Shown: positions 12,431 through 63,741 of the stretch, piece by piece
Layout of the letters: the number at the start of each line of letters is the position of its first letter
Numbering within the stretch: the first letter of the stretch is position 1
Virus record (IMG/VR): IMGVR_UViG_3300050014_000899
DNA: 64,000 bases
DNA from: a virus
Reading direction: 5' to 3' (one strand)
Made by a program: the position numbers and the translations under genes
Notes under the pieces: model-generated
The model's input: only the letters and a program-made list of their open reading frames with translations
Databases searched by the model: none
Told to the model about the DNA's origin: nothing

Positions 12431-12592
12431 TAAACTGTAGTAAAGTCAAAAGTTACTTCGAAGCTTTGGGAGCCGGTGACCGCAAGGTCTTGAGGGTGCA
12501 AATCCTTCTACCCCCGCCATATTTTAAGGGGGTATGGTGAAATTAGTAAACACGCCGTATGAAAACACACTTTTAACAAATTTCTCAGTTTA
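12431..12592 (+). ncRNA. Y-RNA-like element B carrying a circularly permuted tRNA (TGG anticodon, long variable arm)
   Basis: Closing stem TAAACTG/CAGTTTA; order anticodon loop-V arm-T arm-TACCCCC-GCCA-linker-GGGGGTA-D arm. Confidence 0.8.
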
Positions 12593-12593
12593 T

Positions 12594-12665
12594 GCCTTCT
12601 TAGTTCTAAAGGTAAAATAGTTGACTTGTAATCATCAGTTATCAGTTCGATTCTGATAGAAGGCT
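12594..12665 (+). tRNA. tRNA-Thr(TGT)
   Basis: GCCTTCT/AGAAGGC, loop CTTGTAA. Confidence 0.85.
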
Positions 12666-12679
12666 CAAAAACATTAACA

Positions 12680-13060
12680 ATGAAAAATTGCGAGAATTGC
12701 GGTAAAATTCTTAATGACATTCGAAAAAAGTATTGCAATAATAAATGTCAAAAAGAACATGAATGGGAACTTAAGAAAGAAAGAATTAAGTTGGGCGAAA
12801 TAGAATCCCCTAAAGCTCTTAGAAGATTCACCATAGAAAGAGATGGAAAATCCTGCAAAATTTGCGGATTAGAAAAATGGAACGGTAAGGATATTCCTTT
12901 AGACATGGATCATATTGATGGAAATAATTCAAATAATTTTCCTATAAATTTAAGAATGATTTGTCCCAATTGTGATGCTCAAACAGATTTTTACAAAGGA
13001 AAAAACAAAGGAAGAGGCAGAGTATACAGAAGAAAACATCAAAATTGTCCCGTGGTGTAA
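12680..13060 (+). CDS. HNH endonuclease
   Basis: CKICG...DMDHIDGNNSNN...NLRMICPNCD. Confidence 0.9.
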   Translation: MKNCENCGKILNDIRKKYCNNKCQKEHEWELKKERIKLGEIESPKALRRFTIERDGKSCKICGLEKWNGKDIPLDMDHIDGNNSNNFPINLRMICPNCDAQTDFYKGKNKGRGRVYRRKHQNCPVV

Positions 13061-13119
13061 TTGGTTAACATATCTGACTTTGGATCAGATGAGTCTAGGT
13101 TCGAACCCTAGCGGGACAG
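13046..13119 (+). tRNA. tRNA-Gln(TTG)
   Basis: TGTCCCG/CGGGACA, loop CTTTGGA. Confidence 0.92.
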
Positions 13120-13129
13120 CAATAAAAAT

Positions 13130-13202
13130 CGAGGATGTGGTGTAACCCGGCAGCACATATGCTTTGGGAGCATAGGGCACAGTTCGAATCTGGCATCCTC
13201 GA
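13130..13202 (+). tRNA. tRNA-Pro(TGG)
   Basis: CGAGGATG/CATCCTCG, loop TTTGGGA. Confidence 0.85.
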
Positions 13203-13263
13203 CAATTTGAAACTAGTTTGTAGAACTTTTTACATAGTTACGTATATAAAATGAAAAGTAACT

Positions 13264-13773
13264 ATGGAATGCAAAAATTGTCAAAAAGAACATGATGGAA
13301 CTTATGGCTCCGGCTTCTTTTGTTCCGTCGAATGTGCTAGAGGATTTAGTCATAAACATTTTACATTAACAGACGATCAAAAACAAAATATTAGTAAAGC
13401 TCTTGAAAAAAGATGGAGGGATAATGATTTTAAAAATATTGATTGGGTTTTATCAGGAGCTAAAGGATCCTCAGGGAAATATAAAAAACCTGAAAATCTT
13501 CTTCAAGTAAGTTCCCGTACCATTGGCAAAATATTTTTAAGATTATTAAAAGAAGAAGGATTTGGATGTTCGAGATGTGGATGGAAAGAGGGTATTGGTG
13601 ATTTGCATCATATAAATGGTAAAAAAATTGAAAACCCAGATCATCATCAAAATTTGTCTTATTTATGCCCTAATTGCCATAGATTGGTTCATCAAAAAAA
13701 GATTGATAAAAACTCCTTAGTTTCTTTGGAAAAACAAATAGGAGATAAATGGAAAAAGTATTATTTTGGATAA
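13264..13773 (+). CDS. HNH endonuclease with N-terminal Zn motif
   Basis: CSRCGW...DLHHING...NLSYLCPNCH. Confidence 0.88.
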   Translation: MECKNCQKEHDGTYGSGFFCSVECARGFSHKHFTLTDDQKQNISKALEKRWRDNDFKNIDWVLSGAKGSSGKYKKPENLLQVSSRTIGKIFLRLLKEEGFGCSRCGWKEGIGDLHHINGKKIENPDHHQNLSYLCPNCHRLVHQKKIDKNSLVSLEKQIGDKWKKYYFG

Positions 13774-13776
13774 TTT

Positions 13777-13848
13777 GCCGACGATCCAGGGAGAAGCTGA
13801 GTCTGTAAAACTCTCGCTCGTTAGTGGTTCGAGATCCACCCGGCGGCA
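13777..13848 (+). tRNA. atypical tRNA, GTA anticodon (Tyr)
   Basis: GCCGACG/CGGCGGC, loop CTGTAAA; weak D arm, enlarged T-loop. Confidence 0.5.
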
Positions 13849-13855
13849 CAAAAAA

Positions 13856-14028
13856 GCGGGTATGGCGAAATGGGTAAACGCCCCTGTTTAGTAGTCTAAT
13901 TTGAATTCTAGAACAGTCAGTTTAGATGAGGAACGGGAGTTCAGCCAGAGAAAAATTGCTCAAGTGATCATGAGAGTGAAATTTCGATGGGAGATCTGAA
14001 ATTCGAGGTTCGATGCCTCGTACCCGCA
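13856..14028 (+). tRNA. tRNA-Leu(GAG)-like with anticodon-loop insertion and enlarged variable arm
   Basis: GCGGGTA/TACCCGC, Leu-type D arm; CCTGT-TT[~37 nt]GAGGA-ACGGG. Confidence 0.6.
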
Positions 14029-14244
14029 CAAAAAATCCAAGGAATTTATTCCCAAGGTAAACGTGTTAGAAAGCGTTTAATAATAAGGTGCGCCACCATT
14101 GAGGGGCGAGTGCCGCCTGGCTACCCATCAGGACTTTAGAAGATAATTTAAACCACCGCAGTTGATTTTTAAATTAGGAGGGGATAGTGGCGCTACAATG
14201 TTCTCTTAAACAGGCCGTCCGGCCTTATCCTAATCTTTTTACAC

Positions 14245-14317
14245 TGTCCTTTAGCGTAATTGGCAACGCGTCTGACTCTGGATCAGGAGACTCTAGGTTC
14301 GAGCCCTAGAAGGACAA
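14245..14317 (+). tRNA. tRNA-Gln(CTG)
   Basis: TGTCCTT/AAGGACA, loop CTCTGGA. Confidence 0.92.
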
Positions 14318-14478
14318 CATAAGCCGTTTCGGGGTTAAAGGTTAAGGACACCCCTGCGGGAGAGAACACGGGATTCACTGATTGTTGATATAATCAGGGT
14401 TCTCTTGACAAAAAAACCGATCAATCATCGCTAATCGGATTGATAAAGTCTGCAGTAGGACGAGGCTACCTACTAACT

Positions 14479-14553
14479 CGGGATGTTCCACAGATGGCTA
14501 CATGGGCTGGTTCCGGAGACCAGTGTTCTTGGGTTCGAATCCCAATATCCCGA
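14479..14553 (+). tRNA. tRNA-Pro(CGG), atypical (C33, A37)
   Basis: CGGGATG/TATCCCG, loop TCCGGAG. Confidence 0.7.
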
Positions 14554-14562
14554 CAAATTTCC

Positions 14563-14645
14563 GCGGATGTGGTGGAATGGTAGACACGCATGGCTTAGGA
14601 CCATGTGCTAGTGATAGCGTGGGGGTTCGAGTCCCTTCATCCGTA
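14563..14645 (+). tRNA. tRNA-Leu(TAG)
   Basis: Class II, loop CTTAGGA. Confidence 0.92.
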
Positions 14646-14693
14646 CAAAACTTTAATGGTAGACAAGCATATAATAATCAAAACTTGTTTACC

Positions 14694-15113
14694 ATGGATA
14701 AAGAAAAAATAATCGAATCTTGCAAAAGTTCTTTGACAATGGCTGAAGCTGCTAAAAAAGCAGGCATTCCCCATATGACTTTTAAAAGATATGCAATCCA
14801 ATTAGGAGTTTATAAACCTAATCAAGCTGGAATAGGAACATATCGACCTATTACTCCTTTAGAAGATGTATTTTCTGGAAAAGCTAAAATGAGATCCTAT
14901 AATGTTAAATCTCGTCTTATCAGAGAGGGATATAAAGATGGAAAATGTGAAGAATGTCATCTTGATGAATGGAATGGCAAATCTTTAGTTATGGAACTTC
15001 ATCATAAAGATGGAAATAATAGAAACTCAAAATTAGAAAATTTACAAATATTATGTCCTAATTGTCATAGTCAAACTCCGACTTTTAGAAGACAAACAAC
15101 AAAACAACAGTAG
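14694..15113 (+). CDS. HNH endonuclease
   Basis: CEECH...ELHHKDGNNRN...NLQILCPNCHSQT; the upstream in-frame extension is tRNA sequence. Confidence 0.9.
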   Translation: MDKEKIIESCKSSLTMAEAAKKAGIPHMTFKRYAIQLGVYKPNQAGIGTYRPITPLEDVFSGKAKMRSYNVKSRLIREGYKDGKCEECHLDEWNGKSLVMELHHKDGNNRNSKLENLQILCPNCHSQTPTFRRQTTKQQ

Positions 15114-15228
15114 TAACTTAGAGGGTTACATCGCAAATGGTAAAGCAACTAGTCCGAAAAACTGGTGACAGAAATGTCATTTTGGGTTCAAGTCCCAATG
15201 TAAATCGCTCTCTAAAATTTTCTCTGTT
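15106..15228 (+). ncRNA. Y-RNA-like element C carrying a Ser-like tRNA body without a free acceptor end
   Basis: AACAG-TAGTAA...GTTACATCG, D, anticodon (CCGAAAA), V and T arms, ...TTCT-CTGTT. Confidence 0.75.
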
Positions 15229-15233
15229 ATTTT

Positions 15234-15317
15234 GCTCCTGTGGTGGAATTGGTAGACACGGTAGCCTTAAGAGCTACTGCCTCAACAGGCGTGTAGGTTC
15301 GAGTCCTATCAGGAGTA
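15234..15317 (+). tRNA. tRNA-Leu(TAA)
   Basis: Class II, loop CTTAAGA. Confidence 0.92.
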
Positions 15318-15322
15318 CAATT

Positions 15323-15397
15323 CGAGATGTTATGCAGATGGCTATACAACAGCGCTCTGGAAGCGTTGGTTCGTGGGTTCGAATCCCACTATCTCGA
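15323..15397 (+). tRNA. tRNA-Pro(TGG), atypical (C33, A37)
   Basis: CGAGATG/TATCTCG, loop TCTGGAA; paralogue of 14479. Confidence 0.65.
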
Positions 15398-15402
15398 CAA
15401 AA

Positions 15403-15475
15403 CGGAATGTGGCGCAGTTGGTAGCGTACTAGCATGGGGTGCTAGGGGTCGTGGATTCGAGTTCCACCATTCCGA
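15403..15475 (+). tRNA. tRNA-Pro(GGG)
   Basis: CGGAATG/CATTCCG, loop ATGGGGT. Confidence 0.9.
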
Positions 15476-15855
15476 CTAAACTTTAACGAATAATATTTTT
15501 TTCCTAAGGAATTTAATTGTATATTTGTCCCATAGATAAAGAAGAAGGAAACCAAGGATCATCTTTGAGTAATCAGAATGAAGCCTTGCTGCAGACCCCA
15601 AATTTTTTAAAGCGCAAAAGGCAGCAGTTACTCCTGAATGAAGCTCTCGGGCGAAGGAATACACGGGTTTAACGGAAACGTATCAGGCTTTATTTATTTT
15701 TAAGATCTTTGAAAAAATTAAAAATATTCGTACCTGTCAATCAGGATCCACTTCCCAGATTTAGGAGACTGGGCTGCCGATAGATTGCAACCTTCGGTAA
15801 ACAAAACTCTACCAGGAACTAATCCACCTGGGGGTTGAATGAGTACGATAATCAT

Positions 15856-16090
15856 TTAAGAAGCTCCAATTGAAGAGATCTGCGGTCGCCAAACCTTGGC
15901 CAACATGATCGTCCATAGGGACTACTGGAGGCGGTATAATCGACGGGACATCTCGTTAGGGAAACCCAACAATGGTTATACAGCATGTGGAAGGTAGGAT
16001 ACCAGGCTTCAACCCCATCGCGCAGTCTTCGGACATCGGGGTTTAGTTCCAAGAGTAAAGGGATGTGAGGACTAATTGGTACTTCTTAAT
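15856..16090 (+). ncRNA. unassigned structured ncRNA
   Basis: GC-rich; ends pair (TTAAGAAG/CTTCTTAA, CCAATT/AATTGG); internal GAAA and TTCG tetraloop hairpins. Confidence 0.5.
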
Positions 16091-16092
16091 TT

Positions 16093-16173
16093 GGCGACGT
16101 TGAGCAATTGGTTGGCTCGCCTGACTGTAGATCAGGTCCTTCGGGCTTGGGGGTTCGAGTCCCTCCGGCGCCA
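16093..16173 (+). tRNA. tRNA-Tyr(GTA)
   Basis: Class II, loop CTGTAGA. Confidence 0.9.
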
Positions 16174-16175
16174 CA

Positions 16176-16508
16176 ATGGAAAACAGAAGTTTAGAAACGA
16201 TATGGGGTAACATTGACTATACCTATATTAAAGACGAAACATATCCAAACGGATTGTTGGTTCTTAATGGATCAATAGTTCATAAGGAATGGAGGGGAAC
16301 CGGAAAATTTAAAGAGATGTTGAGAATGTTATTCTTTCAATATCCGGAAGGAACAGAATTACAAGCTGCTGTAATAAGCAGTAAATTAAGCCCATTATTT
16401 GAAAGGATGAAATTTGTAAGAGTAAAACGAATTGAAATCTGGGGCGAATGTGCCAATACAAAGAAATTTAAAGGATACATTTATAAAGGTATCCAAAACG
16501 ATATTTAA
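16176..16508 (+). CDS. hypothetical protein (possible GNAT fold)
   Basis: VHKEWRGTG resembles the acetyl-CoA binding motif. Confidence 0.55.
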   Translation: MENRSLETIWGNIDYTYIKDETYPNGLLVLNGSIVHKEWRGTGKFKEMLRMLFFQYPEGTELQAAVISSKLSPLFERMKFVRVKRIEIWGECANTKKFKGYIYKGIQNDI

Positions 16509-16749
16509 AGAAGCTGCCTCGTTTAAGTGTTATCCATGCAGCAAAAGCACGTCAGCAACTTACGGAGCTGAAGGTCCGGTCATCATGGATCCCCGGGAAA
16601 CGAGCGAATATTGAAAAGAAGAGGGCTGATAAAGCGACTTCAATAGAAGCGTTGAAACAGCTGAAGAACCGGTTGGGGTTCTTGGGATAGTCTTAATGAA
16701 AGTTAAGTTCCCGGTGAGTACTCGTTCAAGAGGTTTTCTGAAATCAAAT

Positions 16750-16830
16750 GTTGCGTTATACAAGCGGTCAAAGTGGCCAGACCTTCAATCTGGTTCTTAC
16801 GATTCGCGGGTTCGAATCCCGCACGCAATA
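16750..16830 (+). tRNA. tRNA-Glu(TTC), atypical (C33, long variable loop)
   Basis: GTTGCGT/ACGCAAT, CCAGA-CCTTCAA-TCTGG. Confidence 0.7.
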
Positions 16831-17009
16831 CAAAGTAATAGTGTAAGAAACCCCAAAGCACAAAGGAGTCATGACTGGAGTGTAAGTAGGTACGAGTTCC
16901 AATTACGTTTTTGATTTGTGTACAGAATTAAACTCGGAGCTATTGGAAAATGTGAAAGCACAACAGGAGATCCCTGGCGGGTCCGGTAGAATTCCGGTTA
17001 CTTTACGAC

Positions 17010-17097
17010 GCTCAGATGGTGGAATTGGTAGACACGTTGGTTCGAGGGGCCAATGCTCGTAATGGGTTTGGGGGTTCGACTCCCCCTCTGGGTACCA
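17010..17097 (+). tRNA. tRNA-Leu(GAG) (C33)
   Basis: Class II, loop TCGAGGG, encoded CCA. Confidence 0.85.
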
Positions 17098-17122
17098 ATA
17101 TATAGATAAAATAAGCATCTAT

Positions 17123-17491
17123 ATGAAAAAACAAATTAGGATTGATAGGGAGAAAGAAACTCCTGGCGTTCTTTTCCAAATTGAAACAGGGGAACTTGAA
17201 ATTAAAGGAAGATCATTTCCAGCAGAAGGGGATACATTTTATAAACCTATCATAGAAGCTGTAGACGATGTTACTTCCGATAGTATTACAGTAAAACTTG
17301 AATTTGAATATGCCAATACTTCTACTGTTCGAGAAATTGTTAAACTTCTTAAAAAAGTTAAAGCAGCGAACAAAAAATCAAAAGTCATCTTTGTTTATGA
17401 AGAAGGGGACAATGATATGCAAGAATTTGGTGAAGATCTAGAATCAGTTTCGGGATTACCATTTGTTTATGTGATTAATCCTGAAGACTAA
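17123..17491 (+). CDS. SiaC / DUF1987 family protein
   Basis: TPGV.F...LEIKGRSFP...FYKPI...EYANTST...YEEGD.DMQE.GED. Confidence 0.8.
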   Translation: MKKQIRIDREKETPGVLFQIETGELEIKGRSFPAEGDTFYKPIIEAVDDVTSDSITVKLEFEYANTSTVREIVKLLKKVKAANKKSKVIFVYEEGDNDMQEFGEDLESVSGLPFVYVINPED

Positions 17492-17586
17492 GATATACCT
17501 GGCGCATCTCTACGGGAATCGGCCGATTTCCAAAACGATGTATGGGTTGACCTTGATAACACTTCGGCCGAGGGGTTAAAGGGGAA

Positions 17587-17657
17587 TTTTCGGTAGTTTA
17601 GTGGCAGAACACCCGCTGCGAAAGCGGGGGACATGGGTTCGAATCCCATTCGGAGAG
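17587..17657 (+). tRNA. atypical tRNA, CGA anticodon (Ser?), short variable loop
   Basis: D and T arms canonical; loop TGCGAAA; weak acceptor stem. Confidence 0.45.
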
Positions 17658-17663
17658 CAATAT

Positions 17664-17737
17664 GCTCGGTTCTTCTAGTGGTAGGAAGGGTGCTTCTCAG
17701 GCATCAGACAAGGATTCGATTTCCTTACCGAGTACCA
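17664..17737 (+). tRNA. tRNA-Glu(CTC)
   Basis: GCTCGGT/ACCGAGT, loop TTCTCAG, CCA. Confidence 0.88.
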
Positions 17738-17780
17738 CCTTTTTCGCCTCGTTTTGACGGATATATAAATAAAATATATC

Positions 17781-18419
17781 ATGCCAAGACGAGAGAAAAA
17801 TAAATTTAATTTTATTTATAAAACTACTAGCTTAATTAATGGTAGATTTTATATAGGTATGCATTCAACAAATACTTTGGAAGATGGATATTTGGGATCT
17901 GGAAAACTTTTAAGATATTCTGTAAAAAAATATGGATCAGAAAATCATAAAATTGAAAGATTAGAGTTCTTTGAAGATCGAATAAAATTAGCAGAAAGAG
18001 AATCTGAAATTGTAAATGAGAGTCTTTTGAAAGATCCTTTATGCATGAATTTAGGATTAGGGGGTCAAGGAGGAATTCTTAATGAAGAACATTCTAAAAA
18101 TCTTAGACATGGTGCTTCCATTTTTTTAAAAAATCAATGGAAAGAAAATTATAAAAAGATGTGTCAGCAAAATTCAGAAAAAGTTAAAATAGCTCATAAA
18201 AATGGATCTTTGCGATACGATAATATGCTGGGAAAACATCATTCAGAAGAATCTAAAAAGAATATTGGTAAGAGCAATTCGGTATCTCAAAAAGGAGAAA
18301 AAAATTCTCAATTTGGTACATGCTGGATTATTCGATCAAATGAAAACAAAAAAATTAATTTATCAGAATTAGAATCCTATTTATCTCAAGGTTGGATAAA
18401 AGGAAGAAAATTAAAATGA
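17781..18419 (+). CDS. GIY-YIG (Seg-like) homing endonuclease
   Basis: FIYKTT...YIGMH...YLGSG; NUMOD3 GKHHSEESK. Confidence 0.9.
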   Translation: MPRREKNKFNFIYKTTSLINGRFYIGMHSTNTLEDGYLGSGKLLRYSVKKYGSENHKIERLEFFEDRIKLAERESEIVNESLLKDPLCMNLGLGGQGGILNEEHSKNLRHGASIFLKNQWKENYKKMCQQNSEKVKIAHKNGSLRYDNMLGKHHSEESKKNIGKSNSVSQKGEKNSQFGTCWIIRSNENKKINLSELESYLSQGWIKGRKLK

Positions 18420-18423
18420 TAAT

Positions 18424-19285: not shown

Positions 19286-19288
19286 CAC

Positions 19289-19371: not shown

Positions 19372-19377
19372 CAATTT

Positions 19378-20333: not shown

Positions 20334-20341
20334 AACATTAC

Positions 20342-20416: not shown

Positions 20417-20430
20417 CAATTCTAAAAGAA

Positions 20431-22465: not shown

Positions 22466-24169
22466 ATGTCAAAGTACAACACAAAAATTGAGCCGGTAGT
22501 TCAGAAGACTACTACTCTACAGGGAGGCCCAGGGCTTACTCAGAGACCTGAGGCAGAATTAATTTCTATTCTTGCAACCGGAATGGGAAATAACTTTTAC
22601 GAAAAGGAAACCGAACGTGAAAAGCGTTTTAAGGAAGTACTTGGTAAGGTAGCTAAGAAGAACCCGACATTTGCCGCAAAGGCTCTTATTTATGCTCGTA
22701 CCGTATTTGGTCAGAGATCAGTAACTCACTTCGGTGCAGTTGAACTTATCCCTTTCCTTCAGGGTAACGAACTTGGTAAGAGATTCTTCTCCAAGAGAGA
22801 TAAGAAGGCCGAACGTGGTGGAATCATATGGAGAATTGATGACATGGCTGAAATTCTTGCAGCTTATATCGCTAAGAATGGCATCAAGCAGGAAGATAAG
22901 TGGACTCTTCCGAATTCAATTAAGAAGGGATTCAAGGATGCTCTCGAGCATGCAGACACTTATGAACTTGCAAAGTATCAGTTAAAGAACCGTGGTGTAT
23001 CACTTGTTGACATCGTCAACCTTGTTCACCCAGTTGAAACTCCTAAGAACGGTTTCATCTATGTAACTGAGGAAGCATACAAGAAGGCAGTTGCAGGAAC
23101 TAAGTTTGCAAACAAGGAATTTAACAAGAATGAAAAGGGAGAAGTTCAGGTTCCGGCCGTTCGTGCTCTTATTCTTGGAATTCTTAAGCAGTTCAACACA
23201 GTTGAAGATAAGAACACCGAGTCAGGAAAGGTTGTTGCAGAAAAGGTTAAGTCAGGTGAAATCACCAAGGAACAGGCTGCAACTGAGCTTAACGAAGCTA
23301 AGACCGAAAACTACAAGGAACTTATCGAGGAAAAGAAGATTGGATACCTTGCATTACTCCGTAACGTAAGGAACATTCTTAAGACAAATGATATGGATTT
23401 ACTTGACAAGGCTTGCGATTTACTTGTCGAAAAGGAATTCATCAGAAAGTCACTTGTATGGCCACACCAGATTGACCTTGCCCTTGAAGTTATGACACTT
23501 GAATTCAACGGAACACAGTTGAGGAAGGTTGCAACAGCACTCGACAAGGCATATGAACTTTCAATTCCTAACTTGGAGCATTTACTTCCGGAAGGAAGAA
23601 CTGCTATCGTATTCGATACATCAGGTTCGATGGATGGTGCAAACCGTATTCCAATTGATGCTAAGGATCCGAAGAAGACTATCAACAAGAAGCCAGCTGA
23701 AAAGGCTGCTCTTATTGCCGCTACACTTGCAAAGGGTGTTGGCGGAGATGTATATCATTTCGCATCAGGTTCTGAACAGATCACCGGCTGGAACCCAATC
23801 GATTCGATTAATACTCTTAAGCAGAAGTTCATGTCCTACAACGGACGTCAGGGTCACGGAACCGACTTCGGTGCATGCTTCAAGTTATTCGAAAGAATGA
23901 ATAAGCAGTATGACAGGGTTCTTATTATCTCCGATGAGCAGGACGGATACGGAAACGTTGAGTCTAACTACAAGGGATACTGCCAGAAGTTCGGAACCCC
24001 ATACGTATACATAATCAACGTAGTTGGTTATGCCCCAACCGCTCCGATAAAGAACGGCGACAGGGTCTTCAGACTATACGGTTACACGGCCGATATATAT
24101 GAAAAGATACCGAGATTGGAAATGAATGTTAATGAGGTCATCGACGCCATTAACAGGATCGAAATCTAA
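22466..24169 (+). CDS. rsr: Ro60 / TROVE-domain ribonucleoprotein with vWA domain (Rsr-like)
   Basis: YARTVFGQRS, YELAKYQ...VSLVDIVNLVHP, GYLALLRNVRN; vWA MIDAS DTSGSM, GTD, IISDEQ. Confidence 0.9.
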   Translation: MSKYNTKIEPVVQKTTTLQGGPGLTQRPEAELISILATGMGNNFYEKETEREKRFKEVLGKVAKKNPTFAAKALIYARTVFGQRSVTHFGAVELIPFLQGNELGKRFFSKRDKKAERGGIIWRIDDMAEILAAYIAKNGIKQEDKWTLPNSIKKGFKDALEHADTYELAKYQLKNRGVSLVDIVNLVHPVETPKNGFIYVTEEAYKKAVAGTKFANKEFNKNEKGEVQVPAVRALILGILKQFNTVEDKNTESGKVVAEKVKSGEITKEQAATELNEAKTENYKELIEEKKIGYLALLRNVRNILKTNDMDLLDKACDLLVEKEFIRKSLVWPHQIDLALEVMTLEFNGTQLRKVATALDKAYELSIPNLEHLLPEGRTAIVFDTSGSMDGANRIPIDAKDPKKTINKKPAEKAALIAATLAKGVGGDVYHFASGSEQITGWNPIDSINTLKQKFMSYNGRQGHGTDFGACFKLFERMNKQYDRVLIISDEQDGYGNVESNYKGYCQKFGTPYVYIINVVGYAPTAPIKNGDRVFRLYGYTADIYEKIPRLEMNVNEVIDAINRIEI

Positions 24170-58805: not shown

Positions 58806-59017
58806 AATTATTTCTCTTAAAAAGAAAATTCGATGGATTTGATCACTGGGATGTTACAATGGGTCTCGTGGTCGCTGCAGATAATGAAAATGATGCTTGG
58901 GAAGTTAATGGAGCAATCAATTTCAATCTTGACCGTCAAGAGGTAGAAATAACAGAATTAGGGGGAGCAAACCCAAACATTGAAAGAGGAATTATTTTGG
59001 AAGATTATAAAAGCTAA
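58802..59017 (+). CDS. hypothetical protein
   Basis: ORF. Confidence 0.65.
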   Translation: MKLFLLKRKFDGFDHWDVTMGLVVAADNENDAWEVNGAINFNLDRQEVEITELGGANPNIERGIILEDYKS

Positions 59018-59022
59018 ATAAG

Positions 59023-59367
59023 ATGTTAACAGAAAAAAATACCGTACTTTTACCTCTTGAAGATTATAATGATCTTAGAGATTTTAAACAGAATCTTGAA
59101 AAAAATAATTCTGCTCGAATTACAGGAGGCAGATACAGTGGTGGAAACTCTTACACTTTTGTGTCTACAGAAGAAACGGTAAAATTGGCTACAAAATTTA
59201 ATGATGAGCTGATTAAGGAAAATAATGAATTAAGATCTAAAGTTTCAGAATTGCAAACTTTGAAGGATCTTCCAAAACCGGCACCAGTACCGTTAAACAC
59301 ATACCAACTTAATGAACTCAAAAATATGACAATTTGGGAGTTCAGAAAATGGAAAAAACAAAAATAA
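59023..59367 (+). CDS. hypothetical protein
   Basis: ORF. Confidence 0.65.
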   Translation: MLTEKNTVLLPLEDYNDLRDFKQNLEKNNSARITGGRYSGGNSYTFVSTEETVKLATKFNDELIKENNELRSKVSELQTLKDLPKPAPVPLNTYQLNELKNMTIWEFRKWKKQK

Positions 59368-59443
59368 AAATAATTTTACATTAAGTTAAAACTTTTCGGG
59401 AAAATCCCGTAATATATAGAGAAACTAATAAATACTACAGCAA

Positions 59444-59548
59444 ATGACAAGGCGTGCAAATATGGATAATTTCGTGGATTGGGGCTTTAATAGAGCAGCC
59501 AATAAAGACGGAGGTTATGGATGCCCGCTAAGGTGGAGAGGTATTTAA
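59444..59548 (+). CDS. putative attenuator leader peptide 2 (MTRRANMDNFVDWGFNRAANKDGGYGCPLRWRGI)
   Basis: 34 codons directly before a terminator and tRNA array 2. Confidence 0.62.
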   Translation: MTRRANMDNFVDWGFNRAANKDGGYGCPLRWRGI

Positions 59549-59575
59549 CGAGGTAGTTAAAAAAATCTTTATATT

Positions 59576-59608
59576 AAGCGGGATCCCAACAGGTCCCGCT
59601 TTTCTTTT
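59576..59608 (+). terminator. attenuator terminator 2
   Basis: AAGCGGGATC/GGTCCCGCTT plus T-tract; 5' arm can alternatively pair with GGATGCCCGCT 59519-59529. Confidence 0.8.
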
Positions 59609-59675
59609 GATTAAAATTATGGAGCTTAAGCTAATCTAGTGAAAGCACTAACTCATCTAAATTTCTCTACTTTAT

Positions 59676-59762
59676 GGTCTCAGGAGCTGCTAGGCGTGGC
59701 TGCCGGACTGTCACTCCGGAACAGGTAAAACTGACAGGTGGGTTCGAATCCCATTGAGACCG
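59676..59762 (+). tRNA. tRNA-Asp(GTC) with long variable arm
   Basis: GGTCTCA/TGAGACC, loop CTGTCAC. Confidence 0.8.
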
Positions 59763-59817
59763 CAACAAATATGCTCGGTAAAGCCTCTTATGATAAATAA
59801 CGTAACTGAGTACTTAT

Positions 59818-59894
59818 AGGGGTGTAGTTCAAGTGGTAGAATAGTGGTCTCCAAAACCAAAGGTTTGCGGGTTCGAGTCCTGCCACCCCTGCCA
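59818..59894 (+). tRNA. tRNA-Trp(CCA)
   Basis: AGGGGTG/CACCCCT-G-CCA, loop CTCCAAA. Confidence 0.93.
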
Positions 59895-59984
59895 GAGATT
59901 TAGTATATGTGAAGACTTGAAGGACTTTGGCCCTTGATTTTAGAGCTTACATACTTTCATGCCAATGAAGGAACTAAATCACAA

Positions 59985-60058
59985 GGGGAATTAGCTCAGT
60001 TGGCTAGAGCACCTGCCCTGCAAGCAGGGGGTCACGAGTTCGACTCTCGTATTCTCCA
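59985..60058 (+). tRNA. tRNA-Ala(TGC) (C33)
   Basis: G3:U70, loop CCTGCAA. Confidence 0.92.
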
Positions 60059-60192
60059 CTCGAGGATGTTCGGCATCATTCAACTCATTCCAAGAAGGTG
60101 TCAAGTAACGAATGTCTAAGTTAAGTCACAGCGGCCGTACCTATAACGGTCAAAATTTCATGCTCGGGCTTTTTTCCGGTTCGTTACTTTAT

Positions 60193-60265
60193 GCGCTTTT
60201 AGCTCAGATGGTAGAGTAGGTGCCTCTTAAGCATCGGGTCCAGGGTTCGATCCCCTGAAGGCGCA
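60193..60265 (+). tRNA. tRNA-Lys(CTT)
   Basis: Loop CTCTTAA. Confidence 0.92.
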
Positions 60266-60350
60266 CAAATGAAAGTGAACGGCGCGTCTACCGTTTAATG
60301 ATTACCGACAAGTTGAAAAAGTCTTGGGCTATAACAGCTTTCATTTATTT

Positions 60351-60426
60351 GGGACGTAGGTCAAACGGTTAAGATGTCGGCCTGTCACGCCGTACGGAGC
60401 GGGTTCAACTCCCGTACGTCCCGCCA
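60351..60426 (+). tRNA. tRNA-Asp(GTC)
   Basis: GGGACGT/ACGTCCC-G-CCA, loop CTGTCAC. Confidence 0.9.
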
Positions 60427-60528
60427 ATATGTAGTAAGAAAAGGGTTACATCGGTTATGATTGGTTCGATTCCAATTTTACCCTGCGAAAGCTCGGGTGA
60501 ATTAAAGCTCTTTTCAATTTTCTCATAT
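60427..60528 (+). ncRNA. Y-RNA-like element J (T-arm plus closed acceptor-like stem)
   Basis: ATATG-TAGTAA...GGTTACATCG, ATTGG-TTCGATT-CCAAT, TTACCC/GGGTGAA, TTCT-CATAT. Confidence 0.78.
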
Positions 60529-60534
60529 CGTTTT

Positions 60535-60608
60535 GTCGATAATAGTTTAATGGTAGAATATCCAGCGGTAAAACGAGGGAAGGAACCGGTTCGATTCCGG
60601 CTAAGACT
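60535..60608 (+). pseudogene. degenerate tRNA
   Basis: D arm and T arm present; anticodon and acceptor stems disrupted. Confidence 0.45.
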
Positions 60609-60611
60609 CCT

Positions 60612-60761
60612 GGGAGTATAGCTCAATGGTAGAGCAATTGGCTGTCTACAGACAGAAGTGTCTGAATAAAAACTTTAGGTGAAGTCTTATGAAGTTAAAG
60701 GAATCAAAATCCTCTTCATCTGCTAACCAATAGGTTCTGGGTTCGAGTCCCTGTGCCCCCG
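60612..60761 (+). tRNA. tRNA-Asn(GTT) with ~78 nt anticodon-loop intron/insertion
   Basis: ATTGG-CTGT[60646-60723]TAA-CCAAT restores the canonical Asn loop. Confidence 0.7.
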
Positions 60762-60828
60762 CTAATAACTAATAAGCAAAAAGATAAAAGTTCGAAACTT
60801 TTTCTGAATATATAGTAAAAGATATATT

Positions 60829-61548
60829 ATGAAGAGTTGCGAAAATTGTCAAAAAGAGCATGAAGGAACTTATGGTTCTGGAAGATTTTGTTCAGCTGAA
60901 TGTGCTAGGGGATTTAGCACAAAAGAAAAACGTTCTTTGATAAATGAAAAAATAAGCAAAAAAATGAAAGGATCGGGACATTCTGATATAAAAATAATTT
61001 GTCCTATATGCCAAACAGAATTTGAAGTTTCATGGAATAAAAGAAATCAAAAATTTTGTTCACGAAATTGTTCAATGAGATTTTCTAATTCTCAACCAGA
61101 AAATATAAAAAATTTATCTTTAAAAAGAATCAACAAAATACTTAAAGGACAAGTAAATGATTATGGTATAAAGATGATATATAAATTCAAAAATAAGGAT
61201 ATTAAATGCGATTCAAAAATAGAATTTGCTTGTTTAAATTTTTTTGAAACTAAAGAGGCATCAGAGATGGAAAGATGCAATCTAATTATTGAATATAAGG
61301 ATAAAGATAAAATAAGAAGATTTAATCCGGATTTTAAAATAAAAATAGATAATAATATTTATATTGTTGAAGTTAAGAGTTATATGAGTATTAAATCTAT
61401 AAATGAAAAATGGCGAAATTATAATGAATTATCTAAATTGAAAAAAGAAGCTTTAATAAATTTTTGTCAATTAAATAACTATATTCCCTTTTGGTTTACA
61501 AAAGATTTAAACAGAAATTTTTATAATAATGTTTCGGTCGTACTATAA
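60829..61548 (+). CDS. PD-(D/E)XK (TnsA-like) endonuclease with N-terminal Zn motif
   Basis: CENC.KEHEGTYGSGRFCS; FNPDF...VEVKS. Confidence 0.75.
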   Translation: MKSCENCQKEHEGTYGSGRFCSAECARGFSTKEKRSLINEKISKKMKGSGHSDIKIICPICQTEFEVSWNKRNQKFCSRNCSMRFSNSQPENIKNLSLKRINKILKGQVNDYGIKMIYKFKNKDIKCDSKIEFACLNFFETKEASEMERCNLIIEYKDKDKIRRFNPDFKIKIDNNIYIVEVKSYMSIKSINEKWRNYNELSKLKKEALINFCQLNNYIPFWFTKDLNRNFYNNVSVVL

Positions 61549-61606
61549 TTGGTCAGACTGCACTCTGTTAAAGTGAATAATGTAGGTTCGAATCCTACCC
61601 GAAACG
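61531..61606 (+). tRNA. tRNA-Asn(GTT)
   Basis: GTTTCGG/CCGAAAC, loop CTGTTAA. Confidence 0.75.
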
Positions 61607-61680
61607 CCGCGCCGCCCAAAGGACGGATGCCCTGGTCACACAAAACCGTATTTGTGCAACTCACCTACGGGGTGAGTATT

Positions 61681-61917
61681 GCCCTGGTAGTTTAACTGGA
61701 GGAGGAACATGAAGTTATTAAATGCTCTCAACACTCAGCGCTGAGATGTTGGTCAAAGAGACATCAGACCTGATAAAAAAGTTAGGGAGGTGCAAAGGCA
61801 TTTATTAAAGAATGGTGGAATAGCTTGCCATCCAAATTTAATTTATGCTGGTAATAGACATTCCGAGAATTCTGGATTCGTTCAGAGGTGTGGGTTCGAT
61901 TCCCGCTGGGGGTTCCA
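61681..61917 (+). tRNA. tRNA-like gene with ~165 nt insertion in the anticodon arm
   Basis: 5' half GCCCTGGTAGTTTAACTGG...TGAA; 3' half TTCA...GTGGG-TTCGATT-CCCGC...TCCA; weak acceptor stem. Confidence 0.5.
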
Positions 61918-61925
61918 ATTTTAAA

Positions 61926-61998
61926 GTTCTTTTAGCTCAGTTGGAAGAGCGCTTCCGTGACATGGAAGAGGCCGTAGATTCGAGTTCTACAAGGAACA
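61926..61998 (+). tRNA. tRNA-Val(GAC)
   Basis: Loop GTGACAT. Confidence 0.88.
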
Positions 61999-62003
61999 CA
62001 AAC

Positions 62004-62079
62004 AGCGACATAGCTCAGTGTGAGAGCGCTCCCGTTCATAGGGAGAGGTGCGGAGGTTCAATTCCTTCTGTCGCTACCA
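62004..62079 (+). tRNA. atypical tRNA, loop GTTCATA (TCA by canonical count; CAT off-register)
   Basis: AGCGACA/TGTCGCT-A-CCA; CTCCC/GGGAG stem. Confidence 0.6.
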
Positions 62080-62080
62080 A

Positions 62081-62182
62081 GGGAGTATAAGCTGTTAGAT
62101 GCATAAACAGCCATACGGGAGAACGGCGAATTTGGTGCTAAGACCATCATCCGCTGAGAGGGTTCGAATCCCTTTACTTCCA
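62081..62182 (+). ncRNA. tRNA-like element with non-canonical core
   Basis: GGGAGTA/TACTTCC acceptor and T-arm. Confidence 0.45.
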
Positions 62183-62247
62183 CGAAATTCACTGTGAAGG
62201 TGAAATTTAATTTTCTTTCCAAAAGTTCGAACATAAGAAAGAAGATT

Positions 62248-62322
62248 TGCGATATAGAGCAGTGTTAGCTCGCTCCCGGGAAAAGGGAGAGGTCGGAGGT
62301 TCAATTCCTTCTGTCGCGACCA
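62248..62322 (+). tRNA. atypical tRNA, GAA anticodon (Phe?), G33
   Basis: Paralogue of 62004; loop GGGAAAA; CCA. Confidence 0.6.
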
Positions 62323-62396
62323 GTTCCTTTAGCTCAGCTGGAAGTAGCGCCACCCCTACATGGTGGATGTCATAGGTTCGATCCCTATAAGGAACA
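62323..62396 (+). tRNA. tRNA-Val(TAC) (C33)
   Basis: GTTCCTT/AAGGAAC, loop CCTACAT. Confidence 0.85.
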
Positions 62397-62397
62397 C

Positions 62398-62537
62398 AAA
62401 CTGTAGTAAAACAGCGAGTTACTTCGTATTCCAAACGACTAGTCTAGGTGCAAATCCTGGGTCCCCTGCCAAAATTACTTAGGGGATTAGTGTAATAGAT
62501 AGCACAGTAAAAACACTCAAGTTAAATTTCTCAGTTT
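62398..62537 (+). ncRNA. Y-RNA-like element K carrying a circularly permuted tRNA (Trp/Gly-like)
   Basis: AAACTG/CAGTTT stem; loop ATTCCAA, T-arm, GTCCCCT-GCCA, linker, AGGGGAT, D arm. Confidence 0.8.
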
Positions 62538-62539
62538 AC

Positions 62540-62641
62540 GGGAATGAAACTATTAGGGGGCGGAACCCTTTTATCCACAGTAGGAATAGTGATAAGGAAG
62601 CAGGCCGATCACCTGAGTGAGTTCGATTCTCACCATTTCCA
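62540..62641 (+). ncRNA. tRNA-like element with non-canonical core
   Basis: GGGAATG/CATTTCC acceptor, T-arm GTGAG-TTCGATT-CTCAC. Confidence 0.45.
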
Positions 62642-62699
62642 CTAGTAGACCGTTATAATTTCATAGGACTCACATTGGAGAGTACAGCGTAGAAATTAA

Positions 62700-62773
62700 T
62701 GGGACACATGTTCCAAGGCAAGGCGAATGAGTTTTGCAAACTTGTTGGGAGGTTTCGATTACCTTTGTCTCCA
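62700..62773 (+). tRNA. atypical tRNA, TGC anticodon (Ala?)
   Basis: Loop TTTGCAA; T-arm present. Confidence 0.55.
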
Positions 62774-62778
62774 CACAC

Positions 62779-62874
62779 TGCGGAAGAGTGAAACGGATAG
62801 AGATTTTAATTAATTTCGCTATCATCCAGGGCTCATAACCCTCGGGATATTGGGTTCGACTCCCATTTCCGCTA
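62779..62874 (+). tRNA. initiator-like tRNA-Met(CAT) with D-loop insertion
   Basis: GGG-CTCATAA-CCC, 1:72 mismatch, ~20 nt extra in D loop. Confidence 0.65.
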
Positions 62875-62991
62875 CTAAAAACAAATGGCAGCACAACACC
62901 TAAAGGGACGCTTTTAAGGTAGTGGCCGAAGCATCGAAAATCAGAAATGACCTGCCGATGTAAAAAACGAATCCGGGCGTTTGTTTTATAT

Positions 62992-63078
62992 GCCGTCGTG
63001 CCAGAGTGGCCAATCGGGGAGGGCTCATATCCCTTGGCTTTTATAGCCCCATAGGTTCGAATCCTATCGACGGTACCA
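62992..63078 (+). tRNA. tRNA-Met/Ile2(CAT) with long variable arm
   Basis: GCCGTCG/CGACGGT-A-CCA, loop CTCATAT. Confidence 0.75.
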
Positions 63079-63094
63079 AATTTAATGTATAAAA

Positions 63095-63601
63095 ATGTAT
63101 TATACAATTTACAAAACTACGAATAAATTTAATGGCAAGTTTTATATCGGAAAGCATCAGACTCAGAAATTAAATGATAATTATTTAGGGTCTGGAAAAG
63201 CTTTGGAACTGGCTATTAAGAAATACGGTAAAGAGAATTTTCAAAAAAGAATTATTTTTGTTTTTGATAATGAAATTTTAATGAATCAAAAAGAAAAAGA
63301 AATTGTTACAGAGAATTTTATATCCAGCAATACAAATTATAATTGTGGGGTTGGGGGAGAAGGAGGAGCTCAATTCTTAAATAAATCTCACTCTGAAAAA
63401 ACTAAAAAATTGCTTGCTGAAAAAGCTAAATTAATAAAGCCCTCTAAAGAAACTAGAGATAAAATATCAGAGGGTAATAGAAAAAGAACATTATCTAAAG
63501 AAACAAGAAATAAACTCTCTCAAAAATCTTTCGAGAGATGGAAAAAATTGCGGGTTGGAGAAAATAGTCATCTCATTGGGCTCATAACCCAAGGTTGCTA
63601 G
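63095..63601 (+). CDS. GIY-YIG homing endonuclease
   Basis: TIYKTT...YIGKH...YLGSG...GGEGG; overlaps next tRNA. Confidence 0.88.
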   Translation: MYYTIYKTTNKFNGKFYIGKHQTQKLNDNYLGSGKALELAIKKYGKENFQKRIIFVFDNEILMNQKEKEIVTENFISSNTNYNCGVGGEGGAQFLNKSHSEKTKKLLAEKAKLIKPSKETRDKISEGNRKRTLSKETRNKLSQKSFERWKKLRVGENSHLIGLITQGC

Positions 63602-63624
63602 GGCGGTACTAGTGCCCGCTACCA
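63549..63624 (+). tRNA. initiator-like tRNA-Met(CAT), degenerate T-loop
   Basis: TTGGG-CTCATAA-CCCAA; GCGGGT/GCCCGC; ACCA. Confidence 0.6.
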
Positions 63625-63629
63625 ATTAA

Positions 63630-63741
63630 GCTGTAGTAACTGTAAGAATTACTTCGTTGAGTTCGATTCTCAATTTTCCCGCCAGATTTTAAAGGGAAAA
63701 TCGCCACAAAGGGTGGCATTATTCTTCTAATTTTTCTCAGC
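63630..63741 (+). ncRNA. Y-RNA-like element L (permuted T-arm/acceptor-CCA/D-like arm)
   Basis: GCTG-TAGTAA...ATTACTTCG, TTGAG-TTCGATT-CTCAA, TTTTCCC-GCCA...GGGAAAA, TTCT-CAGC. Confidence 0.8.

What the first reader, a model, noticed from the sequence alone, without database searches (positions are those of the whole stretch)
12431..63741. Circularly permuted tRNAs that keep anticodon loop and encoded CCA inside the Y-like stem
Seen: in B the order is GC-TTTGGGA-GC-CGG, V arm, T arm, TACCCCC-G-CCA, linker, GGGGGTA, D arm, CCG. Removing the Y stem gives a perfect CCGGC-TTTGGGA-GCCGG anticodon arm. K is built the same way (AGT|CGT-ATTCCAA-ACGACT; GTCCCCT-G-CCA / AGGGGAT). L keeps T arm, acceptor-GCCA and a D-like arm; J keeps T arm and a closed acceptor. 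In B and K the break is in the 5' strand of the anticodon stem. Known: permuted tRNA genes occur in some algae and archaea; YrlA normally lacks an anticodon. Inference: these RNAs could be opened by RNase P and 3' trimming into chargeable two-piece tRNAs carrying a Ro handle, or spliced into real tRNAs.
Basis: partly seen in the sequence, partly recalled or inferred. Interest (0 to 1): 0.8.

Follow-up and report, generated by a model that had tools for sequence, protein, structure and literature searches.

The report
Phage Y RNAs carrying whole permuted tRNAs
A giant uncultured phage that encodes the RNA-binding protein Ro60 also encodes partner RNAs whose cargo is a complete tRNA cloverleaf written in rotated order, anticodon loop and CCA end included; they are the most tRNA-like Ro partners I found described, and they look like tRNA mimics rather than working tRNAs.

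Summary
Rejoining the two halves of B (12431-12593) and K (62397-62540) gives sequences that ARAGORN calls tRNA-Pro(UGG) and tRNA-Gly(UCC).

The design is conserved. About 28 comparable elements occur in related IMG/VR phages, in a 634-kb uncultured phage and in cultured Rhodococcus phage Trina.
- In nine K-type sequences, 18 of 35 pairs show compensatory changes.
- T-loop G55 always goes with loss of the D-loop GG (5 of 5), which points to an L-shaped fold.
- Anticodon loops keep 7 nt, U33 and a purine at 37.
- Encoded CCA follows 18 of 28 closed acceptors, against 11% of ordinary tRNAs in the same loci.

The flanking stem-bulge-stem handle covaries and travels with a Ro60 gene, so these are YrlA-like Y RNAs. 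Published YrlA lacks an anticodon loop and a free CCA.

RNase P opening is plausible, with a precedent in M. smegmatis YrlA. Use as decoders is unlikely:
- Canonical tRNAs with the same anticodon sit in the same phages.
- B and K lack the Gly and Pro acceptor identity that those canonical tRNAs carry.
- Anticodons differ between orthologues.
- No splicing endonuclease or RtcB was found in five relatives.

I rate it a new variant of a known kind. Earlier notes of this scan describe the modular Y-RNA set on this same stretch.

The parts
12431..12593 (+). Element B: Y-like handle enclosing a permuted tRNA-Pro(UGG)-like cloverleaf. Order: part of the anticodon arm, long V arm, T arm with a G55 T-loop, 7-bp acceptor + GCCA, 8-nt linker, D arm, CCG.
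12463..12519 (+). B, tRNA 3' part (nt 30-76): anticodon loop 12465-12471 and CCA 12517-12519.
12528..12557 (+). B, tRNA 5' part (nt 1-29): acceptor 5' strand, D arm, and CCG of the anticodon stem.
62397..62540 (+). Element K: handle enclosing a permuted tRNA-Gly(UCC)-like cloverleaf. The CG of the handle's UUCG serves as nt 29-30 of the anticodon stem.
62425..62471 (+). K, tRNA 3' part (nt 29-76): anticodon loop 62428-62434 and CCA 62469-62471.
62481..62508 (+). K, tRNA 5' part (nt 1-28).
63627..63745 (+). Element L: handle, T arm, 7-bp acceptor + GCCA (63674-63684), linker, D-like arm. It has no anticodon hairpin.
60425..60527 (+). Element J (my assignment of the label): handle, T arm, closed 7-bp acceptor without CCA, no D arm.
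22466..24169 (+). Ro60/TROVE protein, the presumed partner of the handles.
   Evidence: Pfam TROVE E 5e-8; Thermus phage phiLo Ro60, 9KOP, E 6e-20
12176..12252 (+). Element A: a minimal handle without tRNA cargo, representative of the handle-only copies (others at 20339-20418 and 21450-21516).
13130..13203 (+). Canonical tRNA-Pro(UGG) with the same anticodon loop as B but a C1-G72/A73 acceptor. A second copy lies at 15323-15398.

Best explanation
B and K are stable non-coding RNAs of the Y-RNA class, partners of the phage's Ro60 protein. They are built like bacterial YrlA: a Ro-type stem-bulge-stem handle formed by the 5' and 3' ends, plus a tRNA-like module in rotated order. Here the module is a whole cloverleaf. 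The handle leaves through a nick in the 5' strand of the anticodon stem, so a normal 5-bp anticodon stem with a 7-nt loop projects from a three-way junction. The acceptor stem is a 7-bp hairpin whose loop starts with N73-CCA.

Shown: the RNAs lie inside tRNA arrays and abut tRNAs on both sides, so tRNA-processing enzymes probably define their ends. The module very probably folds into an L shape.

Inferred: RNase P probably cuts at the linker/+1 junction in at least the CCA-bearing members, and 3' trimming then leaves a two-piece RNA with a CCA end, as in M. smegmatis YrlA. I think they act as Ro-tethered mimics of particular tRNAs. They would be decoys, competitive inhibitors or recruiting platforms for proteins that read anticodon loops and acceptor ends, such as host anticodon nucleases or tRNA repair and modification enzymes. 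I do not think they act as decoders.
For: - Rejoined halves are called tRNAs. Rejoining gives a full cloverleaf in about 28 of 39 handle-adjacent elements from relatives, and no call in 11 elements, among them J, L and their look-alikes, which have no anticodon hairpin.
- K family, 9 sequences: 96.2% of cells paired, 18 of 35 pairs with changes on both sides, 0 of 500 shuffles as good, slid controls at most 44%. The split anticodon-stem pair covaries (CG 7, GC 1, UA 1).
- B family: position 1-72 is G-C, U-A or C-G in three lineages, the V arm covaries, and the anticodon arm is identical.
- Tertiary covariation: G55 in the T-loop goes with loss of the D-loop GG in 5 of 5 cases, and U55 with GG in 23 of 25.
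- Handle: 11 of 15 pairs are compensatory in 20 handle-only copies.
- The handle motif lies 400-650 nt upstream of the Ro gene in 12 of the 18 related Ro loci (none found in the other 6, several of them contig fragments). A TROVE gene is present in 3 of 3 complete phage genomes that carry the motif.
- Encoded CCA follows 18 of 28 closed acceptors against 126 of 1129 canonical tRNAs.
- Precedents: YrlA architecture and RNase P/CCA processing (PMC4201824); the proposal that YrlA competes with an anticodon nuclease (PMC7790460); a Ro-like phage protein that counters a defence system and sits next to tRNA genes (bioRxiv 10.1101/2024.10.10.617714).
Against: - No expression, Ro-binding or processing data exist for these RNAs.
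- Rfam's YrlA model (RF02553) does not hit them at E <= 1.
- The GNCGAAN0-1G motif is matched only loosely (UUCGAAG in B, CUUCG plus variable bases elsewhere).
- CCA is missing in about a third of the closed acceptors, so opening of the acceptor cannot be a universal requirement.
- The decoy or recruiter role is inference. No target protein is identified.
Confidence: 0.7

Rival explanations
1. Two-piece functional tRNAs. RNase P and 3' trimming open the acceptor, the RNA is aminoacylated and it takes part in translation while still carrying the handle.
For: 7-bp acceptor, N73-CCA, canonical 7-nt anticodon loops with U33 and R37, elbow covariation. M. smegmatis YrlA gains a CCA end in vivo (PMC4201824).
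Against: - The acceptor and discriminator do not match the Gly and Pro identity sets that the phages' canonical tRNAs carry.
- The discriminator varies (G, G, U, A, U) and the anticodon switches among K orthologues.
- B combines a Pro anticodon with a long variable arm.
- Canonical tRNAs with the same anticodons sit in the same phages.
- From established ribosome structure (my inference): a handle of about 70 nt, with or without Ro, leaving the anticodon stem at nt 28-30 would not fit the decoding site.
Confidence: 0.07
2. Permuted tRNA precursor genes, as in Cyanidioschyzon and Thermofilum. The handle is excised, the ends are ligated in the anticodon stem, the acceptor is opened, and a normal tRNA results.
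For: The gene order is 3' half then 5' half. Related phages encode Rnl2-type RNA ligases (4 of 5) and sometimes a CCA-adding enzyme. Wang et al. raised this possibility for YrlA (10.1101/312249).
Against: - No bulge-helix-bulge at the junction: it is flanked by 7-9-nt single strands and the covarying handle.
- No tRNA-splicing endonuclease and no RtcB in five relatives.
- The same handle occurs without any tRNA cargo, and around unpermuted modules.
- The products would be redundant and would lack identity elements.
- G55 T-loops occur only in handle-linked modules.
Confidence: 0.05
3. Decaying relics. Handle elements recombined with tRNA genes, and the anticodon loop and CCA are leftovers with no function of their own.
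For: CCA is replaced by CAA, ACA or CTA in several lineages. Some anticodon loops are degenerate: a 6-nt loop in L050 and L117, C37 in L162, and no U33 in L054:-2408.
Against: - The anticodon arm is the best conserved part of the B family, identical in lineages whose acceptor, V arm and linker have diverged.
- U33 and R37 are kept in nearly all elements across at least five scaffold families and two break points.
- The split anticodon stem covaries.
- CCA is enriched about six-fold over canonical tRNAs.
Confidence: 0.13

Closest known systems
Bacterial and phage YrlA (Y RNA-like A; Rfam RF02553; Chen et al. 2014, PMC4201824; crystal structure 6CU1, Wang et al. 2018)
   Same: - Encoded near, and on the strand of, a Ro60 (Rsr/TROVE) gene.
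- The 5' and 3' ends form the Ro-type handle.
- Module order is V, T arm, acceptor-like hairpin, D arm, so it is a circularly permuted tRNA mimic.
- M. smegmatis YrlA has a 7-bp acceptor, is cut by RNase P and acquires CCA.
   Different: [quoted passage not shown] Here a complete anticodon stem-loop branches off at a nick in its 5' strand, or follows the D arm in a second class, and N73-CCA is encoded.
- The handle sequence differs (GUAGUAA...UUACUUCG with AAAUUUCUC).
- RF02553 does not detect these elements.
- There are at least 11 handle copies in 64 kb (10 exact and one looser match to the 5' motif), most of them embedded in tRNA arrays.
Circularly permuted tRNA genes of Cyanidioschyzon merolae and Thermofilum pendens (Soma 2007; Chan 2011, as cited in 10.1101/312249)
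   Same: The 3' half lies upstream of the 5' half, the acceptor is closed by a linker that follows the CCA, and the termini pair with each other.
   Different: Those are the cell's only genes for the tRNAs concerned. They are processed through a bulge-helix-bulge motif by the splicing endonuclease and a ligase into a circular intermediate. Here there is no such motif, no endonuclease was found, the anticodons are redundant, and the paired termini form a conserved Ro-type handle that also exists on its own.
D. radiodurans Yrn1 and Thermus phage phiLo Yrl1/Yrl2 (PMC4201824, PMC12135203)
   Same: Ro60-bound stem-bulge-stem RNAs. Yrn1 can be drawn with an anticodon-like arm. phiLo shows that a phage Ro60 binds phage-encoded Y-like RNAs and host PNPase.
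   Different: Yrn1's 'anticodon loop' has 6 nt and its D arm is doubtful. The phiLo Yrls are not described as tRNA-like. None carries a full cloverleaf or an encoded CCA.

Membership tests
YrlA / bacterial Y RNA | Encoded close to, and on the same strand as, a Ro60/TROVE gene | tested here: met
   Handle copies lie at 20038-21516, just upstream of Ro (22466-24169). The motif sits 400-650 nt upstream of Ro in 12 of the 18 related Ro loci. TROVE is present in 3 of 3 complete genomes with the motif. B and K themselves lie 10 kb upstream and 38 kb downstream of Ro.
YrlA / bacterial Y RNA | Match to the Rfam RF02553 covariance model at gathering score | tested here: not met
   No RF02553 hit at E <= 1 in 11500-20500 or 59000-64000. 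The model is in the library: it gives 23.7 bits in phage Trina.
YrlA / bacterial Y RNA | 5' GNCGAAN0-1G motif in a handle formed by the 5' and 3' ends | tested here: inconclusive
   The handle is a covarying stem-bulge-stem. The conserved 5' motif ends in CUUCG, and only B reads UUCGAAG.
YrlA / bacterial Y RNA | tRNA-like module in the order V, T arm, acceptor-like hairpin, D arm, with tRNA tertiary pairs | tested here: met
   elbow covariation of nt 55 with nt 18
YrlA / bacterial Y RNA | Physically bound by Ro60 | not testable with these tools
   Needs immunoprecipitation or a gel-shift assay.
Permuted tRNA genes (algal/archaeal type) | 3' half upstream of 5' half, rejoining to a canonical cloverleaf | tested here: met
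Permuted tRNA genes (algal/archaeal type) | Bulge-helix-bulge motif at the paired termini, with a splicing endonuclease available | tested here: not met
   The junction is flanked by 7-9-nt single strands and handle stem 2. PF01974 is absent from five related phage records. The host is unknown.
Permuted tRNA genes (algal/archaeal type) | Encodes a tRNA that the genome otherwise needs, with its identity elements intact | tested here: not met
   Canonical Pro(UGG) and Gly(UCC) tRNAs co-occur. B and K lack their acceptor and discriminator identity.
tRNA (RF00005) | Contiguous cloverleaf detectable in genomic order | tested here: not met
   Neither Rfam nor ARAGORN calls B or K in place. They are called only after rejoining.

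The most novel reading that the evidence does not exclude
Giant phages deploy a set of Ro60-tethered, full-length tRNA decoys. Each copies the anticodon loop of a particular tRNA that the phage also supplies in canonical form (Pro-UGG and Gly-UCC here). RNase P opens each to expose a CCA end. Their acceptor identity and elbow (A18-G55) are altered so that they stay out of translation. They would bait or sense host anticodon nucleases and other tRNA-targeting defences, and hand the outcome to Ro-linked decay or repair. That would be an RNA-based anti-defence system.
Probability: 0.3. Interest if true: 0.85.

Novelty: new variant of a known kind. Interest (0 to 1): 0.66.

Why it matters
What the tRNA-like domain of bacterial Y RNAs is for remains unknown, as does whether Y RNAs descend from tRNAs. 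These elements are intermediate forms. They have a Ro-type handle on a complete permuted tRNA, with two different break points, and sit beside versions that have lost the anticodon arm, the D arm or the CCA.

They give concrete, testable substrates for several questions:
- Does RNase P open them?
- Does Ro bind them?
- Do anticodon nucleases or tRNA enzymes recognise them?

One example sits in a cultured phage, Rhodococcus phage Trina, where genetics is possible. They are also missed by tRNA finders and by Rfam, so phage annotation overlooks a recurrent RNA class found in 170-630-kb phages.

Tried and rejected
- Rfam, at gathering and E-value thresholds, gives only canonical tRNAs in the window.
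- No near-identical phage record exists in INPHARED, and no whole genome is held for the window.
- RF00010 (RNase P RNA) gave no hit at E <= 0.01 in five relatives, so the lead of a phage mini RNase P could not be followed there.
- RtcB and tRNA-splicing endonuclease are absent from the relatives.
- A blastn search with the Trina element found only Trina plus tandem-tRNA junctions in E. coli phages, which are false positives of the dimeric-tRNA kind.
- My first rejoin enumeration lost the CCA-bearing elements because the artificial flanks paired. I fixed this.
- That enumeration also produced spurious calls that use handle bases, for example L050 Val(cac) and L117 Arg(acg). Rejoin calls alone are therefore not proof.
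- A mixed alignment of all scaffold families (A4) was too heterogeneous for a single model, so I built no covariance model.
- Folding 12253-12432 was inconclusive.
- Two Y-RNA reviews (PMC10870794, PMC6047535) are not held.


Full report
**Setting.**
- The window is phage-like. Nearly all ORFs are on the + strand, and many are GIY-YIG or HNH homing endonucleases. There are NAD-salvage genes, a dCMP deaminase and a weak gp23-like hit.
- ARAGORN finds 29 tRNAs in two arrays, at 12.0-19.4 kb and 59.6-64 kb.
- The protein at 22466-24169 is a Ro60 homologue: Pfam TROVE E 5e-8 and Thermus phage phiLo Ro60, PDB 9KOP, E 6e-20.
- No whole genome is held for the window.
- Relatives with 67-79% identical Ro proteins are IMG/VR phage contigs. 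One is a complete 405-kb genome with terminal repeats. The handle motif also occurs in complete phage genomes of 172 and 173 kb.

- Joining B's downstream piece (12528-12557) to its upstream piece (12463-12519) gives 87 nt, which ARAGORN calls tRNA-Pro(tgg). It has a 7-bp acceptor, a D arm, a perfect 5-bp anticodon stem, a 4-bp variable arm, a T arm and G73-CCA.
- The same operation on K (62481-62508 plus 62425-62471) gives a 75-nt tRNA-Gly(tcc).
- Unconstrained folding of K recovers the anticodon hairpin, T arm, closed acceptor and D arm inside a terminal stem.
- L (63627-63745) has a T arm, a 7-bp acceptor with GCCA and a D-like arm. J (60425-60527) has a T arm and a closed acceptor only.

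**The handle is a real, Ro-linked structure.**
- The 5' motif GTAGTAA-N-TTACNTCG occurs 10 times on the + strand, against 0 expected.
- Twenty handle-only copies from the window and its relatives align. Their consensus is a 5-bp stem, a bulged U, 2 bp, an internal loop (UAA opposite AAAUUU) and an 8-bp second stem.
- Eleven of the 15 pairs show compensatory changes. One example is GUAG/CUC changing to GUGG/CCC.
- The motif lies 400-650 nt upstream of the Ro gene in 12 of the 18 related Ro loci; I found none in the other 6, several of which are contig fragments.
- All three complete phage genomes that carry the motif encode a TROVE protein, as does a fourth record about 80% complete.
- The handle is a stem-bulge-stem like Y RNAs. 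It is not matched by Rfam's YrlA model.

**The permuted cloverleaf is a conserved design, not an accident of this genome.**
- A three-part pattern (handle plus T-loop) has 56 exact matches in IMG/VR.
- I took handle-adjacent T arms followed by a closed acceptor, enumerated the ways to rejoin the two sides, and ran ARAGORN. About 28 of 39 elements gave a full cloverleaf.
- Eleven elements gave no call. They include J, L and their look-alikes, which have no anticodon hairpin, so they serve as an internal control.
- Two spurious calls that use handle bases show that the enumeration alone is not proof.
- There are two break points:
  - inside the 5' strand of the anticodon stem (join after nt 26-30), as in B, K and most others;
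  - in the variable region (join after nt 41-43), so that the anticodon arm follows the D arm (L011:+5107, L063, L023:-581, L164:-4864).
- B has orthologues in L082 and in L170/L173. Their anticodon arm is identical. Their V arm covaries, and position 1-72 is G-C, U-A or C-G.
- For nine K-type sequences I tested an explicit structure. 96.2% of cells are paired and 18 of 35 pairs change on both sides. None of 500 shuffles did as well, and slid controls reached at most 44%.
- Six of the seven acceptor pairs covary. So does the 2-bp part of the anticodon stem supplied from the far side of the nick (CG 7, GC 1, UA 1).
- Anticodon loops have 7 nt, with U33 in all but one element and a purine at 37 in all but two. 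The anticodons seen are UGG, UCC, UUC, GUU, GCA, UGA, AGG, GUC, UAU and UAA.
- The same architecture occurs in a 634-kb uncultured phage, LR745206.1.
- It also occurs in cultured Rhodococcus phage Trina, unannotated. There it directly follows tRNA-Asn and lies 1.2 kb upstream of the annotated Ro protein. It has a CUGCAAA loop, a 7-bp acceptor and GCCA.

**Evidence for an L-shaped fold.**
- B, K, L054:-2158, L138 and L155 have G instead of U at T-loop position 55. Exactly these five lack the D-loop GG and read UAG or GAU there.
- All 23 elements with U55 and a real D arm keep GG (Fisher p 1e-5; the cases are not phylogenetically independent).
- The switch appears within both the B and K families, so it arose more than once.
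- This is the pattern expected if the G18-psi55 elbow contact is replaced by A18-G55.
- In the window, the G55 T-loop occurs on the + strand only in B and K. A one-mismatch variant sits in the tRNA-like stretch between A and B.

**The CCA.**
- Eighteen of the 28 distinct closed 7-bp acceptors (my count, near-identical copies merged) are followed by N-CCA. The figure is 126 of 1129 (11%) for canonical tRNAs in the same loci and 7 of 29 in the window (p 8e-11, not independent).
- Canonical tRNAs here mostly read N73-CAA (16 of 29), and all 29 encode C74. The K-type elements without CCA read TCAA or ACAA, the same context.
- The linkers are A/U-rich and 3-21 nt long.
- M. smegmatis YrlA also has a 7-bp acceptor. 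It is cut by RNase P in vitro and in vivo, and it acquires CCA (PMC4201824).
- Together this makes RNase P opening of B, K and L a reasonable but untested prediction.

**Why they are probably not decoders.**
- *Redundancy.* The window has two canonical tRNA-Pro(UGG) genes. G001, L030, L161 and L170 each carry a canonical Gly(UCC) or Pro(UGG) tRNA alongside the permuted element with that anticodon.
- *Identity.* The canonical Gly(UCC) tRNAs begin GCG, or GCA in one copy, and mostly have U73. The canonical Pro(UGG) tRNAs begin CG. Four of the five show C1-G72 with A73; the 3' end of the L170 copy does not read clearly. These are the bacterial identity sets, which I recall from the literature. 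B has G1-C72 with G73, and K has A1-U72 with G73.
- *Drift.* K orthologues differ in discriminator (G, G, U, A, U) and in anticodon (UCC, UGG, UUC, GCA) on an otherwise conserved body.
- *Odd combination.* B joins a Pro anticodon to a long variable arm.
- *Sterics.* A handle leaving the anticodon stem at nt 28-30, with or without a 60-kDa Ro ring, should not fit the ribosomal decoding site. This is my inference from established structure.
- *No splicing route.* I see no bulge-helix-bulge at the junction. No splicing endonuclease or RtcB was found in five relatives. Rnl2-type ligases are present in four of them, and CCA-adding enzymes in two.
- *Handle independence.* The same handle also occurs with no cargo, and around unpermuted D-anticodon-T modules (15110-15230, 63876-63985). 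It is therefore a functional unit in itself and not an intron-like spacer.

**Most likely mechanism.**
- These are YrlA-like Y RNAs whose effector module mimics a whole tRNA.
- Published YrlA 'lacks the anticodon loop' and 'lacks a free CCA end'. The same authors noted that YrlA resembles a circularly permuted tRNA and wondered whether some might be processed further (bioRxiv 10.1101/312249).
- Hughes et al. proposed that YrlA's tRNA-like domain might competitively inhibit an anticodon nuclease (PMC7790460).
- A Ro-like protein of coliphage Bas63 counters a defence system and sits beside tRNA genes (bioRxiv 10.1101/2024.10.10.617714).
- Conserved anticodon loops that copy those of co-encoded canonical tRNAs, on scaffolds stripped of aminoacylation identity, fit a decoy, sensor or recruiter role best. 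That step is inference.

**Literature and earlier notes.**
- Full-text searches for Y RNA or YrlA combined with anticodon, phage or permuted tRNA found no description of anticodon-bearing or CCA-encoding Y RNAs. The library lacks most subscription journals and two key reviews.
- Earlier notes of this scan on the same genome describe the modular Y-RNA set, a mini RNase P RNA and canonical Gly tRNAs beyond the window's end. I could not read that DNA. I tested the redundancy claim only in relatives.

Noticed in passing
window 12431-12593 and 62397-62540; G001 (L054:1284-1428, L138:1381-1531); L030 and L170 (same metagenome): Each phage or sample carries one UGG-type and one UCC-type permuted element, but the scaffold carrying each anticodon is swapped between genomes. 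K-type is UCC in the window and UGG in G001. The two loops could form a 5-bp kissing pair (UUGGR with UCCAA). That complementarity is also inherent to any Pro-UGG and Gly-UCC loops.
   Followed up: partly
window, all 29 ARAGORN tRNAs: Every canonical tRNA encodes C74. Sixteen of 29 are followed by CAA after the discriminator, and only 7 by CCA. This may be a shared 3'-processing signal.
   Followed up: partly
window 15323-15398: The second canonical tRNA-Pro(UGG) has the anticodon loop UCUGGAA, so C33 replaces the near-universal U33.
   Followed up: no
window 60612-60761: Rfam tRNA match (49 bits) spanning 150 nt. It is a tRNA with an insertion of about 77 nt in or near the anticodon loop, and ARAGORN does not call it.
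   Followed up: no
window 62004-62079 and 62248-62322: Two closely similar tRNAs, both with encoded CCA. One has anticodon UCA (called SeC, so it would read UGA) and the other GAA.
   Followed up: no
window 12253-12380: A tRNA-like stretch between A and B. It has a GGGGAG/CUCCCC acceptor with ACCA, a T arm with a G55-type loop (UGCAAUU) and an internal GAUACUUCG that resembles the handle motif. The fold was inconclusive.
   Followed up: partly
window 15110-15230 and 63876-63985: Handles that enclose unpermuted tRNA-like modules. ARAGORN calls Phe(gaa) inside the first. The second has a D arm, an anticodon arm (GUU) and a T arm with no acceptor. Here the handle replaces or extends the acceptor stem.
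   Followed up: partly
window 20038-20340 and 51689-51960: Handles with large cargos of about 250-300 nt that are not tRNA-like. The first is conserved in L088 and L091.
   Followed up: no
window 20520-20960: A GC-rich, apparently structured non-coding stretch between the Y-like copies and the Ro gene. It has no Rfam match at the gathering threshold.
   Followed up: no
L180 (NC_042040.1 83290-83420 and 84277-84485): Cultured Rhodococcus phage Trina has an unannotated K-like permuted tRNA element. It also has a stretch annotated 'tRNA-OTHER' (pseudo) just upstream of its Ro gene that reads like a classical YrlA.
   Followed up: partly
window 43472-45520: A TonB-dependent receptor (Plug plus beta-barrel domains) encoded in a phage genome.
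   Followed up: no
window 458-1567: An RlaP-family nucleotidyltransferase, a family linked to RNA repair pathways, lies in the same window as Ro and the Y RNAs.
   Followed up: no
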